A stretch of 20,000 bases of DNA, taken from IMG/VR virus record IMGVR_UViG_3300008120_000157; one strand, written 5' to 3'. The notes beneath the pieces are model-generated. The model saw only the letters and a list, made by a program, of their open reading frames with translations. It had not been told where the DNA came from and did not search any database. The position numbers and the translations under genes are program-made. Below are positions 1 through 16,348 of the stretch, piece by piece. The DNA is from an uncultured virus (IMG/VR IMGVR_UViG_3300008120_000157). Taxonomy: Duplodnaviria > Heunggongvirae > Uroviricota > Caudoviricetes > Crassvirales. Within the stretch, counting starts at the first letter, position 1. Every line of letters starts with the position of its first letter.

Positions 1-141
1 TTTTTTTATCTCTGTTGTAGGCTTTACATCTGGCATTTGAAAATTATTAAAAGCAAAAGCTTTGTGGGCAAGGTCTTCTCCCACTTGTTTTACTAACATT
101 TTCCATTCTTTACTGTTCTTATTGGGACAAGCTATAGCCAT
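1..141 (-). CDS. 5' part of a further cargo-module gene (partial, runs off the left edge): MAIACPNKNSKEWKMLVKQVGEDLAHKAFAFNNFQMPDVKPTTEIKK...
   Basis: Translated by hand; not in the ORF track. ATG at 141-139 lies 6 nt after the TAA of the 1664-aa ORF, and the frame stays open for 47 codons to the window edge. The C-P-N-x(4)-W-K-x-L start resembles N-termini I recall from giant crAss-like virion proteins. Confidence 0.8.
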   Translation of the reverse strand, partial: MAIACPNKNSKEWKMLVKQVGEDLAHKAFAFNNFQMPDVKPTTEIKK

Positions 142-147
142 TATAAA

Positions 148-3100
148 TTATTTACCACAAATTAACAAATATTTTTCATACATATCTTCATCCATTTCTC
201 TTGTTGCAAGGAATTCATCAGAGAAAGCACGATTAAATGCTTCCCAATCATCAGGTGAAGGTGTGAATGTATCTTTTTCTTGGAAACCAGAAGGTAGAGA
301 CTTTTTCTTAACAGCTGGAGATATTTTACTTGTATCTAGTTTATTAGTAAAAGGCTGAGCAGGTGTTTGAATACTTCTAAGCTCGTCTCTTACTTCCATA
401 AGTAATTTTGGAAACTCTTTGCCCCATTTAGTTTTATCTTGAGTATGTGTAAGAGTAGCGTTACCTGTAGCAAGTAGTTTAGCTAGAGCATCTGGATTTT
501 GTTCAAAAGATTCTTTTAGTAATTCTTTCATAATTCTAGAAGAATTTTTATCCCATTCTTTTGTATCTAATCCTGTAATTGTTCTGCCTAATGCTTTAGC
601 TTTTGCTCCTGTAACATTCATTAATTCTAGTACAATAGGTAATCTATCTCCTATACCCATAGATGAATATCTAAATTTAGCAGCTTGAAATGCTCCTTCT
701 ACTGTATTAAAAGTACCATGGATAGTCACGACACTTTTAAAAGGCCTAACAGCAAAATTACTTAACTCAGCATTTTCTCCTGTACCTGCATAAATATTAA
801 TAGTTGTGTTAGATAGTATACTAGGTTCTGTAGTAGTATCAAATCCTGTTAGAGTTGCTTTTATTCCTGGAGCAGGCGCAAAAAATACATCGTCTTGTAG
901 TGATTTTCTTTGTGTAGAATCGATCAAATCAATAGTTTCTTTAACTGCAGAAGCTAAAGCTGTACCTGCTTTAATATCTATACCTAAAGAATTTAAGAGT
1001 TGTAACAACAAATCTTTGAGTTTATCCATCATAGACTTGTCTTCTACTTTTACTTTATTTAACCATGCCTGGAATCCTTGGTCAGTAAGCGCCATAGTAA
1101 CAAACTCTGTAAGTTTGATAGCACCGTAGTATTTACTTAAACCTTTATCTGTAGTAAAAGGAGTTCTTGTAGCAGGGTCTGCTTTTGCCCAAGTATTAAA
1201 TTTTTCTATAAATTCATTTAACTCATTACGATTTCCTTGAGTTTCTAAATAATTAATATAACTTAACTGTAAAGCTTTTAGGTTATCAATAATCTTTACT
1301 TGTTCAGCAGTAAGTTTATCCATTCTACCTGCCTGATAATCTCTAATCGCCTCTCCTGTAAAAGTATGAATTAGTTCATGTGCTACAGTATTAGCAAGAT
1401 CGTTAACTGTTTTATGATTTTGATGATTTAAATTTATAAACAAAGTCTTAGTTGCATATTCATATCTGCCTCGAACACCAGCTTCTTTTACAAACTCAAA
1501 TTTAAATCCTTCTGGAAATATTAAACTATGAAGTTTTTCTAAAAGTAATTTGTTAGTAGTACTAACAGTAGGATCGGATAGTAGTCTATCAACTAGGTCA
1601 TCAAATGCTCGTTTACCTGACATGTTTGTATCTACACCTAGTTGATTAGGTGGAGTTTGTTGTACAGGATTGTTTACAATATTAGGATCAAATGTCTTAG
1701 TAGGTTTAACAAGAACACCTTGGATTGTGGTACCTGGAGCAACTACGCTTGGTTTGTTGTCTTTAATCTTAGGTTGATAAACAGGAACAACTACAGCATT
1801 CTGTGAGTTATACTGTGTAAAACCATAAGTACCTTGTAGTACAGGAATACGGTTGTATTTACGAGTAGATTCATCAAACTCGTATAATGCGTACTTAGAT
1901 TTATTATTCTTATTATCATCTCTGATAGTTAAGAAATGCGTCTGTGTCTCAGTCATATCTCCAGATACAGGATCTACAACACTTACAAAATTTCTTTCTA
2001 ATGCTTCTTTATCTAACTCAAATGATTCTGGAACTGTACTTACTTTACCTTTTAAGTCGCCAAGAGATATTGTTTTAGCAAGGTTTGGATTATTTTGAAT
2101 GTATTGACGAGTAAAACTACTAGGCATGCTATAAATAGGGTTGCCTAAATCGTCAACTATTCCACCAAAAGTACGTTCAAAATCAAAAGGAATTCCTTGC
2201 AGATAGTTGCCAAACCCTAAAGTTTTTAAGTATCCAATAGGAATATAGCGCATGTATTGTTTAGAACCTTGTATACCGCCTTCTAAGAAGGCCGCTGTAA
2301 TAAGATCTTGTGCAAGAAGTCTAGTAGTATAATCAATACCGTTAAAGTTTCCTAGAGGAACGTTTTTAGAAAGCAAATATGCAAAGCCTGCATAAATGCT
2401 GCGCTCGTCAAAATTAGCAGCATTACTAGACTCAAAGTTAATTCTTGAAACATCTCCATTACTGTTAAAGTTAAACGTAAGTTTATTTAAGAATTGATTG
2501 TTTTGATACCAAGGTTGAGTAGATAACTCTTGTAGTATAGTAGCAAGACTTTTGTTTTCACCTTCTTTATCGATAAATAATCTTGCTCTTTCTTCATCTG
2601 GATTGCCTAAAAATAAACTACTTCCTTCATTAGAATAAAAGTAAGATTTAATATCTTGGAAAATTTCTGTTTGTACATCGGATAACTTAGTGCTGCTAGC
2701 AATTACTTTATCTCCACTAGGAATATGTTTAAGAACTTCTTTAAATATTGTTTGAAATCCGTCTGTATTATACGGAAAATATGGAGCGTAAATATTATTA
2801 GCAAACATAGTTCCGTATTTAGAAGCATATCCACTAATAGTTGTTGGTACAAACTCTTTATTTTCTATTGTACCTAGTAGACTATTTGCATTAAATACAT
2901 TAGATAAAGGAAGGTTTTCAATCTGAGTTACTTTAGTATTAGTTTCTAACAAAGATTTGGGAATGCCTTTAGATGCAGTATTAATAGCTGATTGTATTTT
3001 CTTAATTTCTTCACCTATTCCATCAAGTTTTAAAAACTTATTTAAAATCATTAACTGTCCTATATTATAGTCAGTTGATTTAGTAGGATTAAATTTAGTC

Positions 3101-5142
3101 TCTTTTAGGTTTTCTAAAAGTTGTTCTCCAGACATGTCACCTAATTTTTCATAGGCTAACATTTGACTTTCAGAAGCTTCTGTTAATTTATTTTCAGGGT
3201 CGTATTTTTTACGAAGCTCCTGCATCAATTCTGCTTGGAAGTTAGCATTATATTTACTAGTAGTAGATCGATTAGCTTTTATTCGATCTAAGTACTCCCA
3301 AATGATGTCTTGAGTAATAAGCCCTGCTATATCTGTTTCTTCAAACCCAAACATTACCATAGCACGTATTGCGCCAAAAGTATCTGAGTTAATATTTAGT
3401 TTATCAAGAATCTGCTCTTTTTCGTTATCTACTGCAGTAGACTGTAGTGCTCGAATAATTGCTGATTTAAATTTAAGAGACTCTTTTTCTTCTTTAGTAA
3501 GCTCACGTTTTTCTGCTTTAGCTCTATTAATAAGAGCTTGAGATTTAAGAGTATATGGATTAGACATATCTCCTTTAGAAACAAACTCTCCAAATGTTGC
3601 TACAGGCATATTAGCTTCTGCTAACTCTTGTGCAGTAGGAATACGTGGATTCATTGGTGTACCAAATAATTCTACATACGCTTCGTCATTAAGATTTTGA
3701 TAAACTAAATCTTTGCCTTGTGCATTAGCATTAAAAGTAGAATCAAGAGAAAATGATCCTACACCATCTTTACCTGCTGTTGCATTAATGTATTTAGTAC
3801 GTTGATAAATATCAGAAAGAATAGTAACAGGTGTAGGGTTTACACCCTTCTCGGAACGTATTTTATTTACTTCTGCAGCTAGACCTGTAAATTCTCCAGA
3901 ACCATCAAGTGCAATAATACTAGCAATCACTTCAGGGTTAGTACTAGTCATTACATCTAAATGGATATCTAAGATCTTATTCTGTTTAGCTGCTACATAA
4001 GAACGATTTAAGATCGATAAGCGATCTATTAATGTTTCGATTTGACCAGGCTCTAGAAATTTTTTATCCAAACTTCTTGTGATAATTTCATTAGCTTGCG
4101 ACGCCAAAGTAGAATCAATATCATCTTTTTCTTCATTACTGTCTATAGTATTCTTAATGTAATCTCTTAGTATTTTATTTTCTTCTTTTGAAAGCTTTAA
4201 TCTTTCTTGTATATCGTTTAAAGTTTCTTTAGCAATCTTAATTTGCGCTTCTATTTTTTTAGGATCAGATAGAAAGTTAGTATATAGCTTGCCATTTTGA
4301 TAAAAATGATTGTACATGTATGTGTACAATTTATCAACGTCAAAGTCGGACCCCATTTGTTTAGTAAAATCTCTAGGCGCTAAGACTAAATCCCCCATTG
4401 CTTCTGGTAAAAATCCTACTATTTCTACAGCAGCCATAGAGTTACGGCTTTGAGTAGGAATACGGAATCCAAATAGTTGAAGTAGTTTTTCAGGAACTTT
4501 AGTAGTGTCTAATAAACCATCTTTTGTTAAAAATTCCTCTATGTTCAAGATTTCTCCACGCTCATTGCGAAACTTAAATGGAATCATAATTTGAGCAGGT
4601 AACATTTTACCTGTTGCAGGATCTACACGCAAAGGTTGTAACCCTTTAGTAGCATCAAATTTATTTGTGAATACGATATCAGAATTCTTTAAATCTCCTG
4701 CTGCAGCATCACCTTCTTTAATTTTAATCCCTTCTTCAGAGCCGAGTACATAAGAATTACCCGTAAACTTTTGTTTAACTACTTTATTACTAACGAGTGA
4801 CGTAAGTAAACTTTCAAATTTATCTGCATAAGGAGATGCCCACAAAGGAATTTTAAAGTTTTGTTTGTCTTCTGTTAATTCTAAAGCAGACAACATGTTA
4901 GGCGCATATCCTTGGCGAGTTTTGATTTCTTGAGCAAGAATCTCAGCAAGTTTAACTGCGGGAATTGTAGTTCTTTCTATGATTTTTTTGTCAGCAACTT
5001 TAACTTTAGAGCTATCTTTTTTAAATCCTGGAAGACTCAGCTTACCGTTAGCAACTAAAGTATCTAAAAGGCCTTCATTTAAAAGTGCCTTAAATTCATT
5101 TTCAGAGACCCAACGACCCCCTACAAAGTACTGACAAGCCAT
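148..5142 (-). CDS. Virion RNA polymerase, catalytic (beta'-like double-psi-barrel) half, fused to a zincin-like metallopeptidase domain and a C-terminal NADAR domain (1664 aa)
   Basis: Motifs GFRIPTQ (RIPTQ at 4450-4464) and GSDFDVDKLY (DxDxD at 4333-4347), plus a later AVDNEK motif, match crAss-like / phi14:2 gp66-type RNAPs. HELIH lies at 1366-1380 and NADAR motifs lie near the C-terminus. Confidence 0.92.
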   Translation of the reverse strand: MACQYFVGGRWVSENEFKALLNEGLLDTLVANGKLSLPGFKKDSSKVKVADKKIIERTTIPAVKLAEILAQEIKTRQGYAPNMLSALELTEDKQNFKIPLWASPYADKFESLLTSLVSNKVVKQKFTGNSYVLGSEEGIKIKEGDAAAGDLKNSDIVFTNKFDATKGLQPLRVDPATGKMLPAQIMIPFKFRNERGEILNIEEFLTKDGLLDTTKVPEKLLQLFGFRIPTQSRNSMAAVEIVGFLPEAMGDLVLAPRDFTKQMGSDFDVDKLYTYMYNHFYQNGKLYTNFLSDPKKIEAQIKIAKETLNDIQERLKLSKEENKILRDYIKNTIDSNEEKDDIDSTLASQANEIITRSLDKKFLEPGQIETLIDRLSILNRSYVAAKQNKILDIHLDVMTSTNPEVIASIIALDGSGEFTGLAAEVNKIRSEKGVNPTPVTILSDIYQRTKYINATAGKDGVGSFSLDSTFNANAQGKDLVYQNLNDEAYVELFGTPMNPRIPTAQELAEANMPVATFGEFVSKGDMSNPYTLKSQALINRAKAEKRELTKEEKESLKFKSAIIRALQSTAVDNEKEQILDKLNINSDTFGAIRAMVMFGFEETDIAGLITQDIIWEYLDRIKANRSTTSKYNANFQAELMQELRKKYDPENKLTEASESQMLAYEKLGDMSGEQLLENLKETKFNPTKSTDYNIGQLMILNKFLKLDGIGEEIKKIQSAINTASKGIPKSLLETNTKVTQIENLPLSNVFNANSLLGTIENKEFVPTTISGYASKYGTMFANNIYAPYFPYNTDGFQTIFKEVLKHIPSGDKVIASSTKLSDVQTEIFQDIKSYFYSNEGSSLFLGNPDEERARLFIDKEGENKSLATILQELSTQPWYQNNQFLNKLTFNFNSNGDVSRINFESSNAANFDERSIYAGFAYLLSKNVPLGNFNGIDYTTRLLAQDLITAAFLEGGIQGSKQYMRYIPIGYLKTLGFGNYLQGIPFDFERTFGGIVDDLGNPIYSMPSSFTRQYIQNNPNLAKTISLGDLKGKVSTVPESFELDKEALERNFVSVVDPVSGDMTETQTHFLTIRDDNKNNKSKYALYEFDESTRKYNRIPVLQGTYGFTQYNSQNAVVVPVYQPKIKDNKPSVVAPGTTIQGVLVKPTKTFDPNIVNNPVQQTPPNQLGVDTNMSGKRAFDDLVDRLLSDPTVSTTNKLLLEKLHSLIFPEGFKFEFVKEAGVRGRYEYATKTLFINLNHQNHKTVNDLANTVAHELIHTFTGEAIRDYQAGRMDKLTAEQVKIIDNLKALQLSYINYLETQGNRNELNEFIEKFNTWAKADPATRTPFTTDKGLSKYYGAIKLTEFVTMALTDQGFQAWLNKVKVEDKSMMDKLKDLLLQLLNSLGIDIKAGTALASAVKETIDLIDSTQRKSLQDDVFFAPAPGIKATLTGFDTTTEPSILSNTTINIYAGTGENAELSNFAVRPFKSVVTIHGTFNTVEGAFQAAKFRYSSMGIGDRLPIVLELMNVTGAKAKALGRTITGLDTKEWDKNSSRIMKELLKESFEQNPDALAKLLATGNATLTHTQDKTKWGKEFPKLLMEVRDELRSIQTPAQPFTNKLDTSKISPAVKKKSLPSGFQEKDTFTPSPDDWEAFNRAFSDEFLATREMDEDMYEKYLLICGK
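375..803 (-). other. NADAR (YbiA-like) domain within the 1664-aa ORF
   Basis: LSNF, FNTVEGAFQAAK, AKALGR, WD...IMKELLKESFEQNP...LLATG and LLMEVRDEL follow the NADAR/YbiA motif order. Confidence 0.85.
930..1605 (-). other. Zincin-like metallopeptidase domain within the 1664-aa ORF (boundaries approximate)
   Basis: RGRYEYATKTLFIN strands precede VAHELIH (HExxH). The downstream LTEFVTMALTDQGFQAWL helix supplies a candidate third ligand Glu (1105-1107). Confidence 0.8.
4333..4347 (-). other. RNAP catalytic Mg2+-binding loop DFDVD (aa 266-270 of the 1664-aa ORF)
   Basis: DxDxD motif about 39 aa after an RxP motif. It is the DFD[IV]D variant of canonical DFDGD, as reported for phi14:2 gp66 (DFDID). 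Confidence 0.92.
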
Positions 5143-5147
5143 AGCAA

Positions 5148-5624
5148 TTATTTATTAAGTAGTTCTTGATCGAACAACAACATGTTATCAGTAAGCGCTA
5201 AACGAGCAAGTAAATCCATGTACTCACCTACTGCTCCTACTTGATGAGTAGTAAAGTCTTGTAGTAACAATCTTACTTTCAGAGAAAGATCCATTTTGCA
5301 AGCAGATTCTTCGTATGCCATAAGCAAATCACGCTCCATTTCGTATGCCATCTCTAAAGCACCTTTAACATCTGTGCAATCACACTTCACAGCATCTAAA
5401 GCATCAGTAGAAAGTTCTCCGCCTAAATCGTTGCAGAACTTTTCGATTTTATTATAATGATCTCGTTCTCCTAAAGACTCTTCAGTAAATAATTTTTCAG
5501 CGCCAAAGTAACCATTAGTCTTCATACGATTTGCTAAATGCAAATACGTATGAGAAGCAGTAAGCTCTAGACGGCCAAATTTATTGAGTTCTTTTTGTTC
5601 AATATCGGTAAGTAGCTTTTCCAT
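5148..5624 (-). CDS. Ferritin (non-heme FtnA-like four-helix bundle), 158 aa
   Basis: ELTASHTY, GYFGAEKLF, ERDH, ALEMAYEMERDL and HQ motifs match the ferritin ferroxidase pattern, and the length is typical. The ATG overlaps the upstream stop (TAATG at 5626-5622). Confidence 0.88.
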   Translation of the reverse strand: MEKLLTDIEQKELNKFGRLELTASHTYLHLANRMKTNGYFGAEKLFTEESLGERDHYNKIEKFCNDLGGELSTDALDAVKCDCTDVKGALEMAYEMERDLLMAYEESACKMDLSLKVRLLLQDFTTHQVGAVGEYMDLLARLALTDNMLLFDQELLNK

Positions 5625-8600
5625 TAATCACAATTTTTAAACTGGTCATTCTCGTCGAAGAAGTAATTAATCTTAGAGTCTACTAAGCCTTCAACGATTT
5701 TATCAAAGTTTTGATTTATAAAGTTAATTCTTTCTAGGTTATCAGCACCTATTTCATCTTCAAATTCTTGTAAAGCAGTCTGTTTCTTAATCGGCGATTT
5801 GATTTTAGAGATAGCATCCATCTTTTCTGCTATCTTCTCAACCATTTCTGGATCGGCTTCTACTTCATTAAATTGTTCTAGAACATTGTCTTCAGTAATT
5901 TCTTCGTAAAGACCTAAACGTTTAGCAAGTTTTTTCTGATTGTACTCAAATAAATCTTGATAAGCACTGTTATATTCTTTAACTAGGTCTTTACCTGTTT
6001 TGTCTTTAGTTACTTGAACATCTAACAAGTCTACAAATAGTAATGCTCGTTCTTGGGTACCTACGTTGATTTCAGCTTTTTCTCGTTTATACGGTACATC
6101 TTGCTGAATTCTAAAGTTGCTACGATCTAGTACTAAAGTGTTTTCAGGTTTAACTTCAAAGTTATCTACAACATTGCCGTTGTCATCAAAAGTCTTAATT
6201 TCACTAGCAACAGCACCTACTTTATTAGCAGTACCAAAAGATGCTCTAATAAATTTAGGTTGTCCTCCTGCAGTGATATCTTTAGATACACTTTCTTCGT
6301 ACTTTTCTAATCCTTGTCGGATTTTGTCTATTTGTAAGCCTGCAGTAAACTGTGGAATAAGTGGAAAACTCGAAGATTTAATGTATACACGGCGGTCTGC
6401 ATTGTCTTCTACACTTGTCATGTTACCCACATACACAGGTTTCATAGGCTGCATTACTAGTCCTAGTTCTTCATATGTAAGTTTTGTGTTGTTATTTATA
6501 ACACCTGCAGATTGCTGAGTTAGCTTCTTGTTAATAGTATTGTATTGGAAATCAGTAAGACGTCCTAATTGGTTTAATACATATAAGTGTTCTTTCCAAG
6601 TAGTGTATTCCTGAGCATCTGATCCTTCTATCTCTCCATAACCTTTTTTGCCGTCACTGTAATCTTTGTTAATCTTTTCAAAAAATTCTTTTTGTACAGA
6701 ATCTTTAAGGTTATTACTTTTAAGTTTTTTATCTTGTAAGAATACTTGTAAGTATTTATTGTTAGCACTATCTGCCAACTCTAATCCTGGTGCAATATCT
6801 CCAGCAAGACGTTTACCCATATTGATAAAAGTTGCTGATAGATTTTCTAAAGTAGTGTTACCATCTTTAAACTTAGCATATAATGCAGGGTCTCCAGTAA
6901 ACAACTTCATCATTTCGCTGTTAGCAATAAGAGAGTTAAATACATAATCTGTAGCAGCAAAACGTACTCTAGCAGCTTCTCCTACACCTTTAGCAATGTT
7001 GGACATGTAAGCAGAGTCTAAGAAAGTATACTTGTCAGTTACACGTCCTTTAGCGTCTTTTATAGTTTGTCCAATTCCAAGATTGTTCCAGTCTTCTAGC
7101 TTTTTATCTACAAGAGTGTTAAGAGTTTCTTGTAAGTAGTCGTATACAGCTTGTTTAACTTCTGGGTTAACTACAGCATCATTTCCTGAACGAACAAGGT
7201 CTCTGTAGTTTTGCATAGTGCCGTTTACTTCTACTATTAGATCGTTTAATGCTGGGAAGAAATAAAAATATTCAGGTTCGTATCCTGCAATATCTGACTT
7301 GCCTTCTAACACTGCGGCACGGATTCTGTTAATCTCTGGCTGTACTGTTGCTTGGTAAAGACTTTCTAAGTTAGCATCAGTAACACCTCCTGGCGTCACA
7401 ACTACTTGTTGGGCTAAAGCATTGACTACTAACATCGTAGTCTTATCCGACATTGTAGGATAGAAATAAGAAACTTTTCTGTAGGTCTTACCGTCAGCAA
7501 CTTGTTTGCTTCCGTTAAAGAACATACCTAGTTTTACTAACTCATGTTCGTCGACAGTAAGTTTGTTTAGCTTACGGTCTTCTTGTGACTTAGTATACTG
7601 ACGTTTAAGTGCTTCAAGAGATAGATAGTCTATACCTAAAGAACTTCTCATTAAATCTCCTGTTTCTCCATCTTGAGTAAGCGCTGCCAACCATAAGCTA
7701 TCTCTTGTAAATGAGATTTTTTTAAGCTTGTCAATTAAGTCTTGATTAATAAACTTTTTATTATCACTGTCGTAACTAGTAAGATCGCGCATGCGATTTA
7801 CTAGATAATTATTGTTACCGTAAGAATAAATAGTCTTAGTACCTGCACGGAAAGAATTACTAAAATTACTAGCAGTATTAATTGCTTCTAATTTAGATAA
7901 TGCTTTGATTGCAGAATCTTTTAACAGTGACTTATCAGCTATTTTATCGGGGTTATTAGCAATAGCTTTAAGTTCTTCTTTTAGTACTTTTACTAACCCA
8001 GAACTAGTATTAAAGAGTGCTTCCCAAGATTTACGGCCAGAATTGTTGTATTTACCAGCACGTAAATCTTTATAAGTAGCATCAGACAGTACAATACCAA
8101 AATTACCTAACCATTTAGCTAATTCTTCATTTGTTACGTCTTTAGGATTTTTTTCCCATTCAGAAGCAATAGTTACTATATCATCTACTACTTCCTTATT
8201 GTATATATAATCACCTGCTTCGTTAACTAAAATAAGATTATTACCTGGTTTTAAAAGATTGCTACCCCAATAATCTCTGAGGCGCTCTTCCATAGCACTA
8301 GAATTACTTGACCAACGTTGTAGAGAATAATTACCATATTGATCTTTATTCCACATAATAAACTTCATACCGATATGATGTTTAGCCATATCTGATACAA
8401 ACTCATTTTTAATTCTTTCTGGAGAATTTTCTATGTTGTCAATAACAGTTTGTAACCATGGGAATGCTTCAGTATATAATCCTAAAGTATCTAACATTAT
8501 ATCTAAGTCGGCAGGTTTATTTGCCAATAACATATGGAGAGTGTCGTAAACTTGATCAAAAGGAATGATTTCTGGGAAACCTAATTCATTAGTCATTACG

Positions 8601-11600
8601 GCACCGTTAGCATCACGTGCTTCAACAAATGCAAAGAACTTACGTAAATCGGCACTTGCTGTAGCTTTTGAGTTAATAGTAAACGCCCAGTCGTCTGAGT
8701 AAATTGTCTTTTCTAGACCTACTGTTTCTTCACTTTCATCGAGGTCCATACTTTCGTCTACTCGTCCTGTAGAAAGTACACTCATGTATTGGTTTACTAA
8801 ACTTTGTAGTTTAGGAAATTGATCGACAATTTTATCTAGTACTGCAGCTTTTTTAGGAAAACCATTGTTTCTATAAAAATCTGCTAGTTGTTTTAAAGAT
8901 TCTTTATGTTCTTCAAATACAGGAAGAGTTTCTAAAGTTTTCTTGCCACCAACTTCTTTAAGAGCTAAGGCTCTTTTCATGATGTCTGCAGCAATATAAG
9001 ATTGCAAAGATTCTTGAGTACGTGGGCTAACGCCTTCTAATAGTAGTTCCCTAGCTTCAGCAACAATAGTTTCTACTTGATCGGGCTCAATAGTAGCCAA
9101 AGCATCATCAAAAGTATCTTCTGAAATATCAGTGCTGTCTTTAGTATTACCATCTACTTTAATAGTTAATCCATTAGGTAAAGTAATACTGCCTGTGTTT
9201 TGTGTTGAACGGGCTTTATATAATTCTAATGCTTTGTTAAAACTGTCTACAGCATTTTGCTTAGACTCAAAGCCGTTAGCTACAGCATCTTCGTCTGTCT
9301 TTAAAAAAGTACCGTCTCCTAAATTTTGAATATATCCTTCTAAAGTTTTAACAATAGACTCAGGAGCTACTGACTCTAACATCTGAGAGATAATCTGCTC
9401 GGCATTTTCAGTAACAGTATCTGCAACAGGTGGTGTAGTAGTAGCTGTAGGTTGTGTAGCAACAGGCTGTTCTAAAGCAGCTAGTTCTGCATCATATTTA
9501 GCATTTATATCTTGTAACTCTTTTTCTAATTCTTTAATTGATTTAGTCTTACCTGTAAAGTCTTGTGCATAATATTTTTTTAAAGCATTCTTCCTTTTTC
9601 TTTCTATATTAGCTTTTTGAGCTTCTATATCAGTAGATGGTGCAGCAGGTTGACTTGCTGGCGGAGCACTTGGCGGTGTAGCTGTAGAAGCAACAGGCGC
9701 AGGCTTAGGCAATTGATTAGCATTAAGCTTTTGTGTCTGTAGTTTACCAGCAAACTTAGTATCAAAAAGAATAGTTGGCTGAATAGTATAAACCCATTTA
9801 GGCTTATCTTCTGTGCCAATGTTAGCAGAGATTACGTTACTCTTAGTAGAACGTTTAATTTGATCTAAGTAACTTAGAGTCTCTGTTTCTCCTTCTCTAT
9901 TTAAAACTATTACAGTAGGAGTGTTTTCTTGTAGAGCTTCAATTCTTACGTTACTTACCATTTGTGCTAACACATTAGTAAGCTTTGTAAGATTTTCTGC
10001 ATTTAATCTTTTACCAAAATTTGATCCTTCAAAGTTTCTAGAGATTACTACGCCATATCGTTGGACTTCACTACCATCTTGTTGGACGTATTTGTTCATC
10101 ATAATGCCTGGACGGCCGAATTCTATACCTGTTTTAGTAATAGACAGTAACGGCGTAGTAGAAGGTAGAGCACTATTAGTACCGCCTTGCATTAATAAAT
10201 TCTCAATAGATTGCCCTTTAGCAGGAAAAATATAAGTAAATTGATTAACATAGTTAGCTAACCCTACTGAGTCTGTGATATCGTGACCTGTAGCATCAGC
10301 AATAGCTTTAACTACAGGATTGTTAATATCTCCAGTAAGATGTGCTTCAACCGCTAATACAATAGAGTTAACAACCTCAGCTGCTAACTTAGTACGCTCT
10401 AAAGGAATAGCTAAAAATTTATCAGGACCTACTTTAACTATAGCATAAGGACGACCTGCTTGAGTATCTTCTTTATTTATGATTACTCCTTTTTTGCCTA
10501 GTAGATTTTCTTTAGAGTTTGCAAATTTATATTCACCGTCTTTACCTACAGCAATAATTAACTTATCATCAGGCATTGCTTCTGTAAGAGGTAAAGACTT
10601 TCCGTCTGCAGTTTTAAACAAACGACCAAAACTTTTATAATCTACTTTAGATTTAACAGTTCCTTTTTCTACAATAGATTTACGGATTAAGTAATTTTTT
10701 TGTCGGTCTTCAGCAATTGCTTCTTGTGTATTGTCTAAGTTTTCCGCCTTGTACCAAGAGTTATCGTGTACGTAAAATACAGTTTCTCCTGACTCAAGAG
10801 TAACTTTAATAGGAACTTCAGCAATATACTCTGGCAATTGGTTTAATGGAATGTTACGATTTTCAGCAATCTGACGTAACTCTGCTAAACGTAATGGCCA
10901 TGCTATTGTCTCACGAGTATTACTTTTAGGATCGTATTTCTCTCCTTCATACTCAGTATCTATAGTCATAATTAGTTTAGTACCTGGCTGCAATGCATCA
11001 GGGTCTAGTACTAATTGATTATCTTCGAGTTGATCAGTAAACTCTTCACGATTTACAGTAAGTATTTCTGCAGTTTGATTAAAATCTCTTGATAAAAATG
11101 CTGCACGATTATGTCCTTCTGCAGCTCTATCGTAGCTATAAATTAAATTACCATTGACGTCTTGGCCTATTAAATAAGTCTTGTCGTTTTGATTAAGAGA
11201 TTCTGCAGCATTAGTAGTGCGCTTAGAAGCTTGGTCTGCTTCATTTTTTGGGTCAGGTAATCCATCAGGAAGCTCTGTTTCAGTGTCTTTGTTGTTCTGA
11301 TCGTTAGCATCTTTTGTTTCTTGTTCTTCAGTTTCATTACCTTGTTGAAATTGATCAAGTGGATTCTTAGGAGGAGCAGTAGGATTCTTTAAGCGCTCTA
11401 AATGATCAGAATACTCCATGCGAAGTTGATCTTTTTTATTTTGACTTATTTCTGCATCATCTATTGCTTTTTGGATTTCATCATAGTTTGCATCTGTAGA
11501 AGCATTAATTTTAGAACGCAACTGTTGCATTGTAAGTTCGACTTGCTTTCTTTTTGCAGCTGCCGCATTACTTTGTTTGATAGTATCAATCTTTGCTTCT

Positions 11601-13732
11601 GCAAGTTGTCTAAACTGCTCATCGTCAGTTTGATCCATTAATTTTTCTACATCAGGAATAGTTTGTGCGTTAACTAATTCAGCATTAAGAGTTTTAAGTA
11701 ATTCTTTTTTAGCTTGTTTAGCTTCATATTCTTGTTGATATTTTCTACTAGTAAGTGTAGTAAACTCTTCTTGATTGCTTTCTATTAATTTATTTAATAG
11801 CTCTTCCTGCCCTTGATAACCTTCATACTGCTCGTATTCAGGAGTATTTTTGACTTCTTTTAAAAACTTGTTGTAAGTTTTTTGGTTCTCTTTAGTATCT
11901 CCTTGATTATTTTCAATATCGCTAAGTACATAGTTAAGAGGAACTTCTTTCTTTTTTGGAGTACGTTTTACCTCAACACCTTCTACTTTATCAATCTGAT
12001 CGTACTCTTCCGTAAACTTATACTTCTGAGCAATGTCACGCACTTTTTGTGCGTAAGCAACTTGAGCATTCTTAGTAAGAGTACCTGTTGTATTTGCTTG
12101 ACGGTCTAATCTTTGTTTGGCTGCACGGTTATAAAAAATCTCATCGGCGTTTTTATACTCTTCAAAGTTATTATAGACTTCTTCTAATTCTTTTAAATTT
12201 TCTAAAGCTTTTTTAGCATTAGCTAAATATTCAGGACCTACTTCTGCAGGATCCTTAGCCATTTCTTCTTTAAGTTGCTCTTCTAAGATATCTGTAGTAC
12301 CAGATTGAAAAGCTTTTAATGCAGTGTTTTCAAAAAGTTTTTCTCGAATCTCTTGCACTTTAGCATCATCTCCACGATTTGCAGCATCAAACAATTCTTG
12401 TTCAAATTGCATGCGCTCGTTGATATTCATTAAAGCATCAGTAACTTTAACTCCGTTTTGTTTAAGTTCTTCAATTACTTTTTGCTGTCTCTGATATTGC
12501 TGACGAAGATTTTCGTTATAACTAATTTTGTTACCATTTTCATCAAGAGTAGCACCTGGGCCATATTTACTAGACCTTAAAGCTGAAGTAATAGCAGTTT
12601 GTCCTGCTCCACCTATAGCTCCTAAAAAAGCAGCTTCTAAGCCTTCCATAGTACTAATAGCTTCAAAACCTTTTTTCATGTAATCCTTCTCACCACGTCC
12701 TTTAGCTTCTCCAGCTTTTTGCGCGACAAGGTTAACAGTTTCTTCTAAAGCTTCTTGCCCTGCTTCTAATCCTACTTTACCTAAAGTAGCTCCTAATGTA
12801 GGAGCAATAAGAAGGTTACGGGTAGATTTCATTGGGGTCAAGAATGCTTTTGCAGATGTAAGATTTAGAAGAATATTAGCACGGTTAATATTCATTGTAG
12901 TTGCAGCAGCTCTTGCAGCATCTTCTTTTGCTTCTGTGTCACTCTTACCTTTAGCTCTAGAATTTTGGTAAGTATTTTTATAAACCTGGGTAGCTTCAAT
13001 AACAGCTTCTGCTTGGTTCATCATAGTAGCTGCACCAACTTGGCCTACTACACCTCCTACAGTTTTAGCATTTTTTGCCCCCATTACAGTCGCTGCTAAA
13101 CCACGAGCTAATGCTTTACCTCCTAATGATGCTAACTTACCTGCTCCCATACCTGTAGCAGCAAATGCAGTAATAGATTCTACAAGACCTTCGCCTCGTG
13201 TCATCCACCATGCAAAGTCTCCAAGTTGCATTGAACCACTAGGATTTTCTTCATAAATAGGTAAAGCTTCACTAGATTTTTCTTTAATACTATCTGCCCA
13301 ATTAACAATAGAATTAGTTGCTGCTTCTTCTGCACTAAAATACCCAGGAAGATCTAACATAGCTGCAGCTCCTCCAATAATTTGAGGCACTATATTTACA
13401 GCAAGTCTACCTATTGCATTTCCTGCTTGTTCCCAATTAGATTGGTTTTCTGCTCTTAAAGTATTAAGAAAATCTGTATCAAACTGTCCTCCACGTAATG
13501 TATTACGATCTATGTAGTCTTCATATGCATCATAAAAATCTGGAGAATCAATGTTGTACATTGCATCTACTCCACTGTACCCTGCTATCCTGCCTCCAGC
13601 TTCTTCTTGTGCTTTTTCGTAATCAGGAAGAACTCCTGATTTAATAGCTTCATTTTTACTTTGTTGTATTAAACTATCAAGTTTTGAAGTATCTGGAAGT
13701 TTATTAATAGGAGGCGTTGTATTTTTAGGCAT
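5624..13732 (-). CDS. Giant virion/ejected protein (2702 aa): N-terminal Gly/Ala-rich membrane-type region, helical and unknown domains, and a C-terminal first (beta-like) half of the virion RNA polymerase
   Basis: One uninterrupted ORF. The C-terminal region contains FTGDPALY, KRLAG, DAQEY, QPMKPVY, YIKSS, ANKVG, FRIQQDVP and GTQ, an ordered series I recognise from crAss-like RNAP N-terminal/beta-like regions. It lies directly upstream of the DFDVD-bearing gene, apart from the ferritin. Confidence 0.8.
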   Translation of the reverse strand: MPKNTTPPINKLPDTSKLDSLIQQSKNEAIKSGVLPDYEKAQEEAGGRIAGYSGVDAMYNIDSPDFYDAYEDYIDRNTLRGGQFDTDFLNTLRAENQSNWEQAGNAIGRLAVNIVPQIIGGAAAMLDLPGYFSAEEAATNSIVNWADSIKEKSSEALPIYEENPSGSMQLGDFAWWMTRGEGLVESITAFAATGMGAGKLASLGGKALARGLAATVMGAKNAKTVGGVVGQVGAATMMNQAEAVIEATQVYKNTYQNSRAKGKSDTEAKEDAARAAATTMNINRANILLNLTSAKAFLTPMKSTRNLLIAPTLGATLGKVGLEAGQEALEETVNLVAQKAGEAKGRGEKDYMKKGFEAISTMEGLEAAFLGAIGGAGQTAITSALRSSKYGPGATLDENGNKISYNENLRQQYQRQQKVIEELKQNGVKVTDALMNINERMQFEQELFDAANRGDDAKVQEIREKLFENTALKAFQSGTTDILEEQLKEEMAKDPAEVGPEYLANAKKALENLKELEEVYNNFEEYKNADEIFYNRAAKQRLDRQANTTGTLTKNAQVAYAQKVRDIAQKYKFTEEYDQIDKVEGVEVKRTPKKKEVPLNYVLSDIENNQGDTKENQKTYNKFLKEVKNTPEYEQYEGYQGQEELLNKLIESNQEEFTTLTSRKYQQEYEAKQAKKELLKTLNAELVNAQTIPDVEKLMDQTDDEQFRQLAEAKIDTIKQSNAAAAKRKQVELTMQQLRSKINASTDANYDEIQKAIDDAEISQNKKDQLRMEYSDHLERLKNPTAPPKNPLDQFQQGNETEEQETKDANDQNNKDTETELPDGLPDPKNEADQASKRTTNAAESLNQNDKTYLIGQDVNGNLIYSYDRAAEGHNRAAFLSRDFNQTAEILTVNREEFTDQLEDNQLVLDPDALQPGTKLIMTIDTEYEGEKYDPKSNTRETIAWPLRLAELRQIAENRNIPLNQLPEYIAEVPIKVTLESGETVFYVHDNSWYKAENLDNTQEAIAEDRQKNYLIRKSIVEKGTVKSKVDYKSFGRLFKTADGKSLPLTEAMPDDKLIIAVGKDGEYKFANSKENLLGKKGVIINKEDTQAGRPYAIVKVGPDKFLAIPLERTKLAAEVVNSIVLAVEAHLTGDINNPVVKAIADATGHDITDSVGLANYVNQFTYIFPAKGQSIENLLMQGGTNSALPSTTPLLSITKTGIEFGRPGIMMNKYVQQDGSEVQRYGVVISRNFEGSNFGKRLNAENLTKLTNVLAQMVSNVRIEALQENTPTVIVLNREGETETLSYLDQIKRSTKSNVISANIGTEDKPKWVYTIQPTILFDTKFAGKLQTQKLNANQLPKPAPVASTATPPSAPPASQPAAPSTDIEAQKANIERKRKNALKKYYAQDFTGKTKSIKELEKELQDINAKYDAELAALEQPVATQPTATTTPPVADTVTENAEQIISQMLESVAPESIVKTLEGYIQNLGDGTFLKTDEDAVANGFESKQNAVDSFNKALELYKARSTQNTGSITLPNGLTIKVDGNTKDSTDISEDTFDDALATIEPDQVETIVAEARELLLEGVSPRTQESLQSYIAADIMKRALALKEVGGKKTLETLPVFEEHKESLKQLADFYRNNGFPKKAAVLDKIVDQFPKLQSLVNQYMSVLSTGRVDESMDLDESEETVGLEKTIYSDDWAFTINSKATASADLRKFFAFVEARDANGAVMTNELGFPEIIPFDQVYDTLHMLLANKPADLDIMLDTLGLYTEAFPWLQTVIDNIENSPERIKNEFVSDMAKHHIGMKFIMWNKDQYGNYSLQRWSSNSSAMEERLRDYWGSNLLKPGNNLILVNEAGDYIYNKEVVDDIVTIASEWEKNPKDVTNEELAKWLGNFGIVLSDATYKDLRAGKYNNSGRKSWEALFNTSSGLVKVLKEELKAIANNPDKIADKSLLKDSAIKALSKLEAINTASNFSNSFRAGTKTIYSYGNNNYLVNRMRDLTSYDSDNKKFINQDLIDKLKKISFTRDSLWLAALTQDGETGDLMRSSLGIDYLSLEALKRQYTKSQEDRKLNKLTVDEHELVKLGMFFNGSKQVADGKTYRKVSYFYPTMSDKTTMLVVNALAQQVVVTPGGVTDANLESLYQATVQPEINRIRAAVLEGKSDIAGYEPEYFYFFPALNDLIVEVNGTMQNYRDLVRSGNDAVVNPEVKQAVYDYLQETLNTLVDKKLEDWNNLGIGQTIKDAKGRVTDKYTFLDSAYMSNIAKGVGEAARVRFAATDYVFNSLIANSEMMKLFTGDPALYAKFKDGNTTLENLSATFINMGKRLAGDIAPGLELADSANNKYLQVFLQDKKLKSNNLKDSVQKEFFEKINKDYSDGKKGYGEIEGSDAQEYTTWKEHLYVLNQLGRLTDFQYNTINKKLTQQSAGVINNNTKLTYEELGLVMQPMKPVYVGNMTSVEDNADRRVYIKSSSFPLIPQFTAGLQIDKIRQGLEKYEESVSKDITAGGQPKFIRASFGTANKVGAVASEIKTFDDNGNVVDNFEVKPENTLVLDRSNFRIQQDVPYKREKAEINVGTQERALLFVDLLDVQVTKDKTGKDLVKEYNSAYQDLFEYNQKKLAKRLGLYEEITEDNVLEQFNEVEADPEMVEKIAEKMDAISKIKSPIKKQTALQEFEDEIGADNLERINFINQNFDKIVEGLVDSKINYFFDENDQFKNCD

Positions 13733-13768: not shown

Positions 13769-16348
13769 TTACTTTAAGTACCTCTGTTCTGCAATCTGTA
13801 CCTTTAAACCGTTTATATCACTAGACTTTAATCCAGTATCAACTTTTCCTGCAGGACTAATAACATAAGCTTTATAAATAGGATCGACGTTATTGCCTAC
13901 ATATTCTTTAACTAATCTAATATTTACACCTGTTTCTCCTGTTGGAATAGTTTCTAGTACTGCAGTTCTATTAGTATTATTTACTTCAGCTGCTTCAGCA
14001 CTTTGTCTTGTTACGCTACTACTAGTCATTAAATTATAAAGACCTACTGCAGTTGTTTGAAATGTTTGATTTGCCAATGGATCAGAATCTTTTAGTTGAT
14101 AGTTCATTTGAGCAGTTCTACGTAAAATTTTCTCAAATAATGCTTCTTGTCCAGGTTTAGCCATTACTTCAACAGTATTAGAGCGTGTGTCCCCATCTTC
14201 ATCTTTATAAGTATAAGGTATCTCCATAAATACTACATTACCACGCATACCAATTTTAGGAGTTTTACCTTCTGCTAATTTAGTACCTCCTGCCATTCTT
14301 CCTTCTTCATCAAATCCTGGAACATTTGCCCAACCTCTTCCTGTTAAAGGAGCAAATCTAGTTAGTTCACTAGCATTTAATAATTCTTGTCCTAGTGCAG
14401 CATCTACAACTTTATCTCCTACAATACGGGAACCCATTTCATTTCCTGAGAAATTTTCTTTATATGCTTTATCTTTAGCTAAGTTAATTGTACCACCTAA
14501 TTCTTTAGAACCTGCTCTCGAAAAATCAAACCCGTTTTCTACAGCTTCTGTTAGACTTTTAAAGCCATAAGCTTTTGCAATATTATTAGCTGACAGCCTG
14601 TATTCTGCAGGCATGTAAGTTTCTTTAGCTGAACGAGAAGGAGTATATTCTACTACTCCACTTTCAATTAATTTTTCTACTGTTGTTCCCCAACTTTTTG
14701 CTAACTTTTCTACAGTACCTACATCAGTTAAAGTTTTTTCTTTTCCTAATGTTTGTATTTCTTCTTTAAATCCTTTTAATGAAGTAACACTGCCAGCAAT
14801 TTGTTTAATTTGATCGTCAGCATCTCTAAAACGATTATAGTTTTCTTGCATTCCTTCGAGAGTTGTGCCTACCATTTGAGCAGTTTTAGTATTGCTTAAC
14901 TCATTAAATACAGATGCAGAAGTACTTTGTTTAATGCCAGTAGCTAATCCTGCATTATATAATTTTCTGTGGAAATCAGTAGCATCTTTAGATTGTTGGA
15001 AGATAGCAAAAATTTGTTGCTGACGTGCAACAGCCATTGCTGGGTTAGCTTCCATATTTTTACGCAATTCAGAACCTTTAGCTCCCATTGAAAGAGCTCT
15101 CATATTTCCTCCAGCGATATTATTAATTTTTGTAATATTTGGTACTAAGCTTTTAGTTGCTAAATATCTATTTTGTTCTAAGTCTACACTTACTAATTCT
15201 TTAGTAGTAGGAGTAGTTCTACCTACTGTACCTTCTAATGTAAAATCTTTTCCTGAACCTGATCCACTAGTTGGTATTGCTTGGAAAGAATAATCAGTGC
15301 TTATATTATTTACTTTAAAAATTTGACCTAACTCAGCAGCATCATATTGATTAGCCATGTAATCTCTTGTATATAAAGCTTGAATAATATCTGGATTAGG
15401 GTTATTCTTTTGGTCTAATAAAAGCTGTTTAGTTTCTAATAGTTTTTGGTATTCTTCTGTATCAGTTTTTTTATCTGCTTCAGCTTTTTTAATTAATCTT
15501 TCATTAGCTGATAAATTTTTATCAATTAAATTATTTGCTAAGTTGTAGAAAGAAGCGCCTTCATCTTTAGCATATAAATAATCTTTAAAGTTATAAGCAG
15601 CATTTTCTTGAAGCCATGGCTTAAATCTATCAAGACTCATCATATAAGCTTCTACTGCTTGATCTATTTCTTCAGGTTTTAATTGCTCAAAAGAACTTTT
15701 AACAAATTGAGCTTTTTGAGAAGTAGGTTCAATGCCTAAAGTTCTTAAAGCTCCATCCCATTCTTTAGCTTTCATTGCACTAGCGACTTTATATTTAGTA
15801 TCGTCAAAGTCTTTTTGCATATCTGTGATTCTTCCTACTTTACCAGTAATAGGATTATAAGTTCCTGTAGGATTTTCTGCATCTCTTTTATAAGCAGTAC
15901 CTCCTACATTTTCAAATTTTCGAAGCTCGTCGGTTCTCCATTGCAAATATTGCTGCTTAGTAATATCTCCTTTTGCTACACGAGCAACTTCTTCTTTATC
16001 CCGTTCTGTAAAAGTTTTATAATTTGTTTCTAGTGCAATACGTTCTGGATCTTCTAACCATAATCTATTAAGCTGTTTAAGTTTACTAGCAGCTTGTGTA
16101 TAGTTTTTACTTTCCATTAAGTTAGTTACTAACTCATCTCGTTTAGTTCTATATAATTGTTCTAAAGCTTTTGCCTTTTCCTTTTCATAAGGAAATTCTA
16201 ATGACGTTGCTTTAACATCAGCTTCTTCAATAGCAGCTTTTGTTAAGTCATATTTTTCCTGCATTTTCATTAATGGCTCTGCAAATGCCATTAAATTTAA
16301 AGGCTTATATTGAAATTGAGTAGGAGTACTATACGGAGTAATTGCCAT
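13769..16348 (-). CDS. crAss-like virion cargo/internal protein of unknown function (859 aa)
   Basis: Long ORF with no Cys. The N-terminus MAITPYSTPTQFQYKPL...MQEKYD resembles the cargo gene that typically lies between cargo protein 1 and the RNAP genes. It starts 2 nt after the upstream stop. Confidence 0.7.
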   Translation of the reverse strand: MAITPYSTPTQFQYKPLNLMAFAEPLMKMQEKYDLTKAAIEEADVKATSLEFPYEKEKAKALEQLYRTKRDELVTNLMESKNYTQAASKLKQLNRLWLEDPERIALETNYKTFTERDKEEVARVAKGDITKQQYLQWRTDELRKFENVGGTAYKRDAENPTGTYNPITGKVGRITDMQKDFDDTKYKVASAMKAKEWDGALRTLGIEPTSQKAQFVKSSFEQLKPEEIDQAVEAYMMSLDRFKPWLQENAAYNFKDYLYAKDEGASFYNLANNLIDKNLSANERLIKKAEADKKTDTEEYQKLLETKQLLLDQKNNPNPDIIQALYTRDYMANQYDAAELGQIFKVNNISTDYSFQAIPTSGSGSGKDFTLEGTVGRTTPTTKELVSVDLEQNRYLATKSLVPNITKINNIAGGNMRALSMGAKGSELRKNMEANPAMAVARQQQIFAIFQQSKDATDFHRKLYNAGLATGIKQSTSASVFNELSNTKTAQMVGTTLEGMQENYNRFRDADDQIKQIAGSVTSLKGFKEEIQTLGKEKTLTDVGTVEKLAKSWGTTVEKLIESGVVEYTPSRSAKETYMPAEYRLSANNIAKAYGFKSLTEAVENGFDFSRAGSKELGGTINLAKDKAYKENFSGNEMGSRIVGDKVVDAALGQELLNASELTRFAPLTGRGWANVPGFDEEGRMAGGTKLAEGKTPKIGMRGNVVFMEIPYTYKDEDGDTRSNTVEVMAKPGQEALFEKILRRTAQMNYQLKDSDPLANQTFQTTAVGLYNLMTSSSVTRQSAEAAEVNNTNRTAVLETIPTGETGVNIRLVKEYVGNNVDPIYKAYVISPAGKVDTGLKSSDINGLKVQIAEQRYLK

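What the first reader, a model, noticed from the sequence alone, without database searches (positions are those of the whole stretch)
4960..5915. RNA polymerase split mid-enzyme, with extra tail and head segments that may be a docking module
Seen: the RNAP-like motif series stops near GTQ...KKLAKRLGL in the 2702-aa ORF and resumes near IPAVKLAEILAQE...KQKFTG in the 1664-aa ORF. Between them lie a ~95-aa tail ending INFINQNFDKIVEGL..KNCD and a ~60-aa head beginning MACQYFVGGRWVSENEFKALL. Established: phi14:2 gp66 carries both barrels in one chain, whereas other crAss-like phages have split RNAP genes. Inference: this split lies shortly before the end of the beta-like part rather than at a clean subunit boundary. 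The added tail and head would then form a portable heterodimerisation pair that re-joins the enzyme. The second junction (..MYEKYLLICGK / MAIACPNKNSKEWK..) has a different sequence, suggesting orthogonal pairs.
Basis: partly seen in the sequence, partly recalled or inferred. Interest (0 to 1): 0.75.

Follow-up and report, generated by a model that had tools for sequence, protein, structure and literature searches.

The report
Movable junction piece splits phage polymerase
The injected RNA polymerase of this freshwater crAss-like phage is cut in two by a small block of DNA (a protein tail, a ferritin gene and a protein head) that other phages carry between other giant proteins, and each new protein end bears one cysteine that probably ties the pieces back together, which nobody has yet tested.

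Summary
The split is real. Unsplit relatives run straight across the site (5-15 residues). Here a 94-aa tail, a 158-aa ferritin gene (not in the finding) and a 58-aa head are inserted midway along the connector between the two catalytic barrels; 12 of 87 loci are split there. The head, mostly with a related tail and often this ferritin, also sits before unsplit polymerases and between giant proteins of phages with no polymerase hit, and a second tail/head type appears at the same site, so the ends are portable. The three cargo proteins hold 4 cysteines in 5,701 residues, all at facing ends. Across 92 loci 184 of 196 inner ends and 0 of 137 outer ends carry one. Best reading (0.6): docking ends closed by a disulfide chain the cargo for packaging and ejection, and re-join the enzyme as a by-product. 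Binding has only weak predicted support (0.58 vs 0.00); no bond or activity is shown. The scan noted the cysteine chain and the ferritin block before on other DNA; my 8 paper searches found neither for crAss-like phages.

The parts
5624..13732 (-). ORF A, 2702 aa: gp67-like cargo part fused to the N-terminal half of the virion RNA polymerase; one Cys (2701)
5909..6622 (-). A2371-2608: end of the beta-type barrel and first half of the connector (FRIQQ, GTQ, long helix ending KKLAKRLGL)
   Evidence: model of an unsplit relative
5627..5908 (-). Added tail, A2609-2702 (94 aa, net charge -15); best-kept part is the last ~45 aa; Cys2701 codon at 5632-5630
5148..5624 (-). Ferritin-like gene, 158 aa; its ATG overlaps the stop of ORF A; E20, Y27, E53, H56, E97, Q128 align with identical residues in solved ferritins (their role as ferroxidase ligands is recalled)
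4969..5142 (-). Added head, B1-58; Cys3 codon at 5136-5134
148..5142 (-). ORF B, 1664 aa: second half of the connector, beta-prime-type barrel, rest of the polymerase, NADAR domain; two Cys (3, 1662)
4333..4347 (-). Catalytic motif DFDVD, B266-270
   Evidence: matches gp66 1361-DFDID
151..285 (-). Second tail (end of B, ..YLLICGK), Cys1662 codon at 159-157
1..141 (-). Start of ORF C (1335 aa, runs out of the window; gp65-like): second head type MAIACPNK.., its only Cys (5) at 129-127

Best explanation
The region is a transplanted gene junction. Crassvirus cargo proteins end and begin with short matched pieces that each carry one cysteine. A block made of one such tail, a stop, a ferritin gene and the matching head was recombined into a surface loop midway along the polymerase connector. 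Shown: the split, its position, the block's parts, its presence at three kinds of site, and the cysteine rule. Inferred: A, ferritin and B are made from one late operon; tail and head dock; Cys2701 and Cys3 form a disulfide in the particle, as Cys1662 does with Cys5 of protein C. The three proteins then form one 5,701-residue chain that is packaged in fixed ratio and threaded through the tail in order. In the host cytoplasm the bond is reduced and the polymerase folds from two chains, held by its own barrel and connector surfaces and helped by the docked ends. The ends make the split harmless, so the block and its ferritin can be gained, lost or swapped.
For: Insertion: 5-15 residues in Fpv1 and P0107 against 152 added residues plus a gene. 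The site is a loop (model residues about 356-364) between helices 329-355 and 365-378 in a model of an unsplit relative with mean pLDDT 91 that matches 6VR4 at Z 20.5, rmsd 3.2, 520 aligned. Cysteine rule on 92 loci: inner N-ends 97 of 102, inner C-ends 87 of 94, outer N-ends 0 of 57, outer C-ends 0 of 80; interior Cys 140 of 483,872 residues against 63 of 8,004 in other ORFs of this genome. All 109 of 120 A-type hits that carry this tail end in Cys; 108 of the 111 B-type hits with this head (of 120) also end in Cys. In crAss001 gp47 lies on the strand opposite gp50 and gp49, yet the end cysteines are kept, so the rule follows the proteins, not gene adjacency. Portability: 69 of 74 hits of the head profile start M..C; 15 are polymerases whose catalytic region lies over 1,400 residues downstream and 20 are proteins over 900 aa with no polymerase-profile hit. 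Tail + ferritin + head occurs before intact polymerases (L140, L142, L143, L146, L148, L153, L158) and in 13 of 13 loci L192-L204. Ferritin is 64-76% identical to the window's in six such loci whose catalytic region is 29-33% identical; DNA likeness to them is confined to window 5719-5050 except one 32-base hit; their ferritins interleave with those of the split clade (one side of a branch in 0% of 200 bootstrap trees). Split and unsplit forms alternate on the B tree (at least 4-5 changes forced by starred branches). Outside the split clade 19 of 25 junctions with this head have a tail scoring 10 bits or more on the tail profile, against 0 of 109 other junctions. Predicted tail-head complex 0.58, best of 3 controls 0.00, runs agree in at least 93% of contacts, partner pLDDT at least 71; that mark was reached by 116 of 157 solved complexes and 2 of 215 mismatches, but at 0.60 or under by only 18 solved ones and both mismatches: weak support. 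Precedent: a gp27 Cys1715-gp26 Cys5 disulfide seen by cryo-EM between ejection proteins of cyanophage A4 (PMC12002296, passages); disulfides exist in the crAss001 tail (PMC10172136, passages).
Against: No disulfide, binding or activity is measured for any crAss-like cargo junction. Tail and head lie on one stretch of DNA, so moving together does not show that they bind, and the 25 junctions fall into two or three related groups. 6 of those 25 have a tail under 10 bits (L142, L143, L158 near 0), so the tail can change much while the head stays. 7 of 94 inner C-ends lack the Cys (L009, L034, L056, L058, L060, L068, L107). Two of 18 loci with two junctions (outside the 3 with unclassified heads) carry the same broad head class at both (L021, L019), which weakens strict orthogonality. 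The B tree came from a quick search and cannot tell gains from losses. Nothing here shows that these proteins are in this phage's particle; that rests on phi14:2 and crAss001. How a disulfide would form in a reducing cytoplasm is not explained. The block has no nuclease or recombinase gene and no convincing end repeats, so how it moves is unknown.
Confidence: 0.6

Rival explanations
1. One reading: tail and head are a non-covalent heterodimer whose job is to re-join the two polymerase halves in the cytoplasm, like the tails of Aeh1 NrdA-a/NrdA-b; the cysteines are incidental.
For: Conserved hydrophobic cores in both pieces; weak predicted complex; opposite net charge, tail -15 and head +3, as in Aeh1 (PMC3045599, abstract and Discussion); each half lacks one barrel.
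Against: The same pair sits before intact polymerases and in phages with no polymerase hit. The Cys is invariant in both alignments and the cysteine rule holds at junctions of unrelated sequence. In Aeh1 itself the tails were not needed for the two fragments to bind.
Confidence: 0.15
2. The end cysteines do link the proteins but not as a disulfide: they hold a metal ion between several chains, or are the site of another modification or a packaging tag read by the portal or a chaperone.
For: The same cysteine counts; a cytoplasm is reducing (general knowledge); an iron-binding protein travels with the junction.
Against: Only one Cys per end and no conserved His in tail or head, too few ligands for a metal site within one pair; many junctions have no ferritin; the solved case in A4 is a disulfide.
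Confidence: 0.12
3. The ferritin gene is what is selected. It was inserted with leftover flanks of an older junction, the polymerase halves bind on their own, and tail and head are relics here.
For: Ferritin is the most conserved part of the block and moves between lineages; split and unsplit forms alternate.
Against: Tail and head stay conserved, with Cys in 109 of 109 tails and 111 of 111 heads of the split clade; tail + head also occur without ferritin (L135, L138, L149, L154-L156).
Confidence: 0.1
4. The block is removed at RNA or protein level (intron, split intein, ribosomal bypass) or the split is an assembly error, so one continuous polymerase is made.
For: Fractured phage genes with split inteins exist (PMC2677866, abstract); introns and inteins are common in crAss-like genomes (PMC7886860, passages).
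Against: No Rfam match at E up to 1 in 4000-7000; no intein family among the Pfam hits of A or B; the Cys lie at the free ends, not at the borders with the enzyme; the layout is the same in 12 of 12 deduplicated split loci; no joint in 4 runs laid, though the one RNA run does not cover the site.
Confidence: 0.03

Closest known systems
Virion RNA polymerase gp66 of Cellulophaga phage phi14:2 (PDB 6VR4; bioRxiv 10.1101/2020.03.07.982082, passages read)
   Same: Same fold (Z 20.5, rmsd 3.2, 520 aligned for an unsplit relative), same catalytic motif, same three-part cargo block; gp67, gp66 and gp65 hold 1, 2 and 1 Cys, all at facing ends.
   Different: gp66 has both barrels in one chain and is cut from gp67 upstream of the enzyme; here the cut is inside the Connector and carries a ferritin gene. 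The passages read do not mention the end cysteines ('cysteine' 0 hits).
Cyanopodophage A4 ejection proteins gp27 and gp26 (PMC12002296, passages read)
   Same: C-terminal helix of one ejection protein docks into the next and is fixed by a disulfide between a C-terminal and an N-terminal Cys (Cys1715-Cys5).
   Different: One fixed link in an unrelated phage; no polymerase, no exchangeable end pieces, no passenger gene; 'crass' has 0 hits in that paper. Sequence relation to the ends here was not tested.
Aeromonas phage Aeh1 nrdA split by mobE (PMC3045599, abstract and Discussion read)
   Same: An essential enzyme gene is cut by an inserted gene, and insertion-derived C- and N-terminal tails of opposite charge are left on the fragments; no splicing.
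   Different: The passenger there is a homing endonuclease and the tails are unique to that site; here the passenger is a ferritin, the ends are re-used at several sites and in different phage groups, and each ends in a cysteine.
Fractured genes: split inteins flanking a free-standing homing endonuclease (PMC2677866, abstract read)
   Same: Layout of gene half - joining piece - passenger gene - joining piece - gene half, in phage enzymes.
   Different: No intein and no nuclease here; the chains are not predicted to be spliced.

Membership tests
crAss-like virion RNA polymerase (gp66 family) | DFDxD catalytic motif in a beta-prime-type double-psi barrel | tested here: met
   DFDVD at B266; residues 427-588 of the model of an unsplit relative match beta-prime/Rpb1 barrels
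crAss-like virion RNA polymerase (gp66 family) | Homology and fold like gp66 across both barrels and the Connector | tested here: met
   Profiles built from A and B hit gp66 961-1167 and 1174-1379; 6VR4 E 3.7e-34 for relative L052. Direct phmmer of A or B to the PDB did not find 6VR4
crAss-like virion RNA polymerase (gp66 family) | Both barrels in one polypeptide | tested here: not met
   Split over two ORFs with a gene between; a variant of the family
crAss-like virion RNA polymerase (gp66 family) | Packaged in the virion and active in transcription | not testable with these tools
   Known for phi14:2 and crAss001 only
A4 gp27-gp26 type disulfide link of ejection proteins | Cys near the C-end of one protein and near the N-end of the next | tested here: met
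A4 gp27-gp26 type disulfide link of ejection proteins | The ends dock on each other | tested here: inconclusive
   0.58 vs best control 0.00, weak support, no contacts given
A4 gp27-gp26 type disulfide link of ejection proteins | Disulfide present in the particle | not testable with these tools
   needs non-reducing gels, mass spectrometry or a structure
Genes-in-pieces with insertion-derived tails (Aeh1 nrdA-mobE) | Enzyme gene cut by an inserted gene, with added tails on both fragments | tested here: met
Genes-in-pieces with insertion-derived tails (Aeh1 nrdA-mobE) | Inserted gene is a homing endonuclease | tested here: not met
   It is a ferritin
Genes-in-pieces with insertion-derived tails (Aeh1 nrdA-mobE) | Tails are needed for enzyme activity | not testable with these tools
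   bench test
Fractured genes with split inteins | N- and C-intein halves on the two fragments | tested here: not met
   No intein family among Pfam hits of A or B at E 0.01; Cys at the free ends, not at the enzyme borders
Ferritin (PF00210) | Family match above the curated cut-off | tested here: met
   46.9 bits against 24.5; 57 PDB sequences, all named ferritin
Ferritin (PF00210) | Iron oxidation and 24-mer shell | not tested
   Only the conserved E, Y, E, H, E, Q positions were seen in alignments

The most novel reading that the evidence does not exclude
Bacteroidetes phages keep a kit of exchangeable, mutually specific tail/head pairs, each closed by one disulfide. Any pair can be dropped into a loop of a giant injected protein, even between the two catalytic barrels of the polymerase, cutting the gene while keeping the proteins one redox-gated thread. 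This frees a slot for passenger genes and small adaptor proteins; the ferritin that travels in the slot may supply the oxidising power for the bond. It would be a natural, reversible counterpart of split inteins.
Probability: 0.3. Interest if true: 0.85.

Novelty: new variant of a known kind. Interest (0 to 1): 0.68.

Why it matters
How several hundred kilodaltons of unfolded cargo leave a crassvirus through a channel under 50 A wide, in order and in the right ratio, is an open question in PMC10172136 (passages). End-to-end links give a concrete answer that can be tested now in the cultured phages phi14:2 and crAss001. The locus also shows a naturally two-chain form of a single-chain two-barrel polymerase, cut between the barrels as cellular polymerases are divided, and marks a loop that tolerates splitting. 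If the pairs are specific, they are small reducible protein connectors of use for engineering.

Tried and rejected
phmmer of A and B against the PDB found no polymerase. AlphaFold of the end of A without an alignment failed (pLDDT 36), so no model of the tail exists. The ESM Atlas gave no usable hit for the tail and only unnamed phage clusters for a protein of the L197 group. The contig of P0108 was not found in viral contigs or metagenome contigs, so the pairing of P0318 with P0108 rests on the same source and the same longest-contig length (85,503). No convincing repeats, terminator or Rfam family at the block; one promoter-like site is below the shuffle mean. The RNA run laid does not cover the site. 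A one-clade test on the ferritin tree did not finish. PF25725 rang in none of 5 records of the L192 group and in no control, so it says nothing; a DFDxD pattern hit no more often than its control. Absence of a polymerase in that group rests on 0 of 4 records (84-95% complete) against a positive control. Papers: 8 searches showed no paper on this split, the ferritin block or end cysteines of crAss-like cargo. The library lacks most subscription papers: the journal version of the gp66 paper is not held and Yutin 2018 was not read. Extended Data Table 3 of PMC10172136 (virion mass spectrometry, reduced and non-reduced samples) was seen only as a legend, and no supplements were opened; they may bear on the disulfide claim and on whether this split is drawn in a published genome map. 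Rows dropped before the 92-locus count: of 129 loci with the catalytic region, near-copies (95% identical) were merged and 16 listed loci that were fragmented, probably recoded or too short were excluded.
Full report
Setting. The window lies in a 58,886-base virus contig of a crAss-like phage. Runs holding the stretch are mostly labelled freshwater or lake. On the minus strand it carries a cargo block: a CARG1-domain protein, an 859-aa protein, ORF A (2702 aa), a 158-aa gene, ORF B (1664 aa) and the start of ORF C (1335 aa).

Observation. A and B match one 4401-position PHROG family in order. Against Fpv1 the match ends at A2608 (2990) and resumes at B65 (3006). The unsplit relative P0107 has five residues between LGL and TIPA. 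So the tail is A2609-2702 and the head B1-58. Between them lies a ferritin-like gene whose ATG overlaps the stop of A. Run X7 holds the whole stretch on one contig, and no joined form was listed in the 4 runs laid.

Where the cut falls. Profiles of the regions before and after the cut hit gp66 at 961-1167 and 1174-1379. The preprint on gp66 (10.1101/2020.03.07.982082, passages) puts the Connector between the barrels at 1095-1238, so the cut is at its middle. An AlphaFold model of the unsplit relative L052 (67 rows, mean pLDDT 91) matches 6VR4 (Z 20.5, rmsd 3.2, 520 aligned). The site is a loop between helices 329-355 and 365-378, and the part that matches beta-prime and Rpb1 barrels starts at residue 427. 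Each half therefore carries one barrel, and neither should be active alone (inference from the two-barrel active site).

How common. Of 92 deduplicated loci, 87 show both regions: 75 in one ORF and 12 split, all at this site and all with the ferritin between. Of the 120 best A-type proteins listed (of 664), 109 have this tail, 7 are unsplit, 3 end without a tail or Cys (probably cut short) and 1 has another tail. Of the 120 best B-type proteins listed (of 327), 111 have this head. On a quick tree of the B core (48 rows) split and unsplit forms alternate, with at least 4-5 changes forced by well-supported branches. Gains and losses cannot be told apart.

The ends are portable. A profile of the head found 74 proteins among 1.84 billion; 69 start with M..C and 5 are internal chance hits. 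15 are polymerases whose catalytic region lies more than 1,400 residues downstream, and 20 are long proteins with no polymerase-profile hit. Their loci show a Cys-ended tail (strong, weak or no match to the tail profile), ferritin and head before an intact polymerase (L140, L142, L143, L146, L148, L153, L158), tail and head without ferritin (L135, L138, L149, L154-L156), and tail, ferritin and head in 13 of 13 loci L192-L204. Four of those records gave no polymerase hit while the control did. In six loci of the first group the ferritin is 64-76% identical to the window's while the catalytic region is 29-33% identical. DNA likeness to them covers only window 5719-5050 apart from one 32-base hit, whereas the unsplit L050 matches the flanks and not the block. 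Their ferritins interleave with those of the split clade on a tree. This points to exchange of the block between lineages. In contrast, the tail profile found no other site in the first loci, and all 33 of its database hits were A-type ends; its relatives at other junctions are distant.

Matched pairs. Outside the split clade 19 of 25 junctions with this head have a tail scoring 10 bits or more, against 0 of 109 others; 6 do not, three of them near zero. P0106 and P0108 are cut at the same site but begin with a CPNK-type head. Among 155 junctions the best match to the P0108 head and the second-best match to the P0318 tail are one junction, in L157. L157 carries both pair types in tandem around a 288-aa adaptor. 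All 10 split loci in which both junctions were read use different head classes at the two, but L021 and L019 use the same broad class twice. Tail and head are inherited on one piece of DNA and the loci are related, so these counts show linkage, not binding. The predicted complex of tail and head scored 0.58 against 0.00 for the best of 3 controls. That mark was reached by 116 of 157 solved complexes and 2 of 215 mismatches, but at 0.60 or under by 18 solved ones and both mismatches: weak support.

The cysteines. A, B and C hold 4 Cys in 5,701 residues (A2701, B3, B1662, C5); other ORFs of the genome hold 63 in 8,004. phi14:2 gp67, gp66 and gp65 show the same 1-2-1 pattern, and crAss001 keeps it although gp47 is on the other strand. 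Over 92 loci: inner N-ends 97 of 102, inner C-ends 87 of 94, outer ends 0 of 57 and 0 of 80. Three of the five inner-N misses are probably first proteins whose marker was not detected. The eight complete ORFs that carry all four markers have no end Cys. A Cys pair appears where the chain is cut, wherever that is.

Mechanism. Most likely (0.6) the ends dock and are closed by a disulfide in the particle, so that A-B-C is one chain for packaging and ejection. Crassvirus cargo must unfold to pass the tail, and its order is thought to depend on contacts between the proteins (PMC10172136, passages). A C-terminal to N-terminal disulfide between ejection proteins is seen in cyanophage A4 (PMC12002296, passages). 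Since the same pair sits where no enzyme is cut, re-joining the polymerase is probably a by-product that made this insertion survivable. The steps from docking onward are inferred. Rivals: a purely non-covalent enzyme-assembly module (0.15), metal or tag chemistry (0.12), relic flanks of a ferritin insertion (0.1), splicing or artefact (0.03).

Known and new. Closest in layout are Aeh1 nrdA-mobE (PMC3045599, abstract and Discussion) and split-intein fractured genes (PMC2677866, abstract), but there is no nuclease or intein here and the ends are re-used. Closest in chemistry is A4 gp27-gp26. Passages of PMC7886860, PMC10136315, PMC13434306, PMC8008677 and bioRxiv 10.1101/2021.06.01.446427 describe fragmented Zeta-group polymerase genes, cargo ejection, ferritin-like genes in another phage family and swapped transcription modules, not this arrangement. 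Eight searches found no report of it, within the limits of the library and without supplements. This scan has noted the cysteine chain many times (68 findings) and the ferritin block at least three times on other DNA. I noted the cysteine pattern before and had the block; the A4 paper came from those notes. I rate it a new variant of a known kind, interest 0.68.

Noticed in passing
window 415-777 (B1456-1576): NADAR domain in a variable slot just before the second tail. A relative identical in B1-300 lacks it (L044, 1509 aa), and many relatives carry RecD-like helicase domains (PF13538, PF13604) instead or as well.
   Followed up: no
L157:5085-5951, L019:11154-12032, L022:5439-5936, L034:11590-12504, L036:7767-9470: Small adaptor proteins (165-567 aa) with a Cys at both ends inserted into the cargo chain.
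   Followed up: partly
L192-L204: A group of 40-65 kb phage records with two 1,300-1,850-aa proteins flanking the same tail-ferritin-head block, no PHROG hit for 6 proteins tested and no polymerase hit in 4 records; their identity is unknown.
   Followed up: partly
L056:14160-14654, L060:15175-15687, L068:15221-15718: More distant ferritins follow polymerase proteins that lack the C-terminal Cys, so ferritin genes have entered cargo junctions more than once.
   Followed up: no
L009:6234-6238: The A gene is broken a second time without any end Cys; either a sequence error or a fresh break.
   Followed up: no
L051:10001-15208; proteins P0111, P0114: Some B homologues carry intein-associated homing-endonuclease domains (PF05203, PF05204) just after the catalytic region, which account for interior Cys.
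   Followed up: no
window 16351-20000 and 13769-16348: The two cargo proteins upstream of A (1236 aa, starting just outside the window, and 859 aa) have no Cys at all, so they stand outside the proposed chain.
   Followed up: no
window about 1366-1380 (B1255-1259): HELIH motif, with H1255, E1256 and H1259 invariant in 16 B-type proteins: a likely zincin-like metal site.
   Followed up: no
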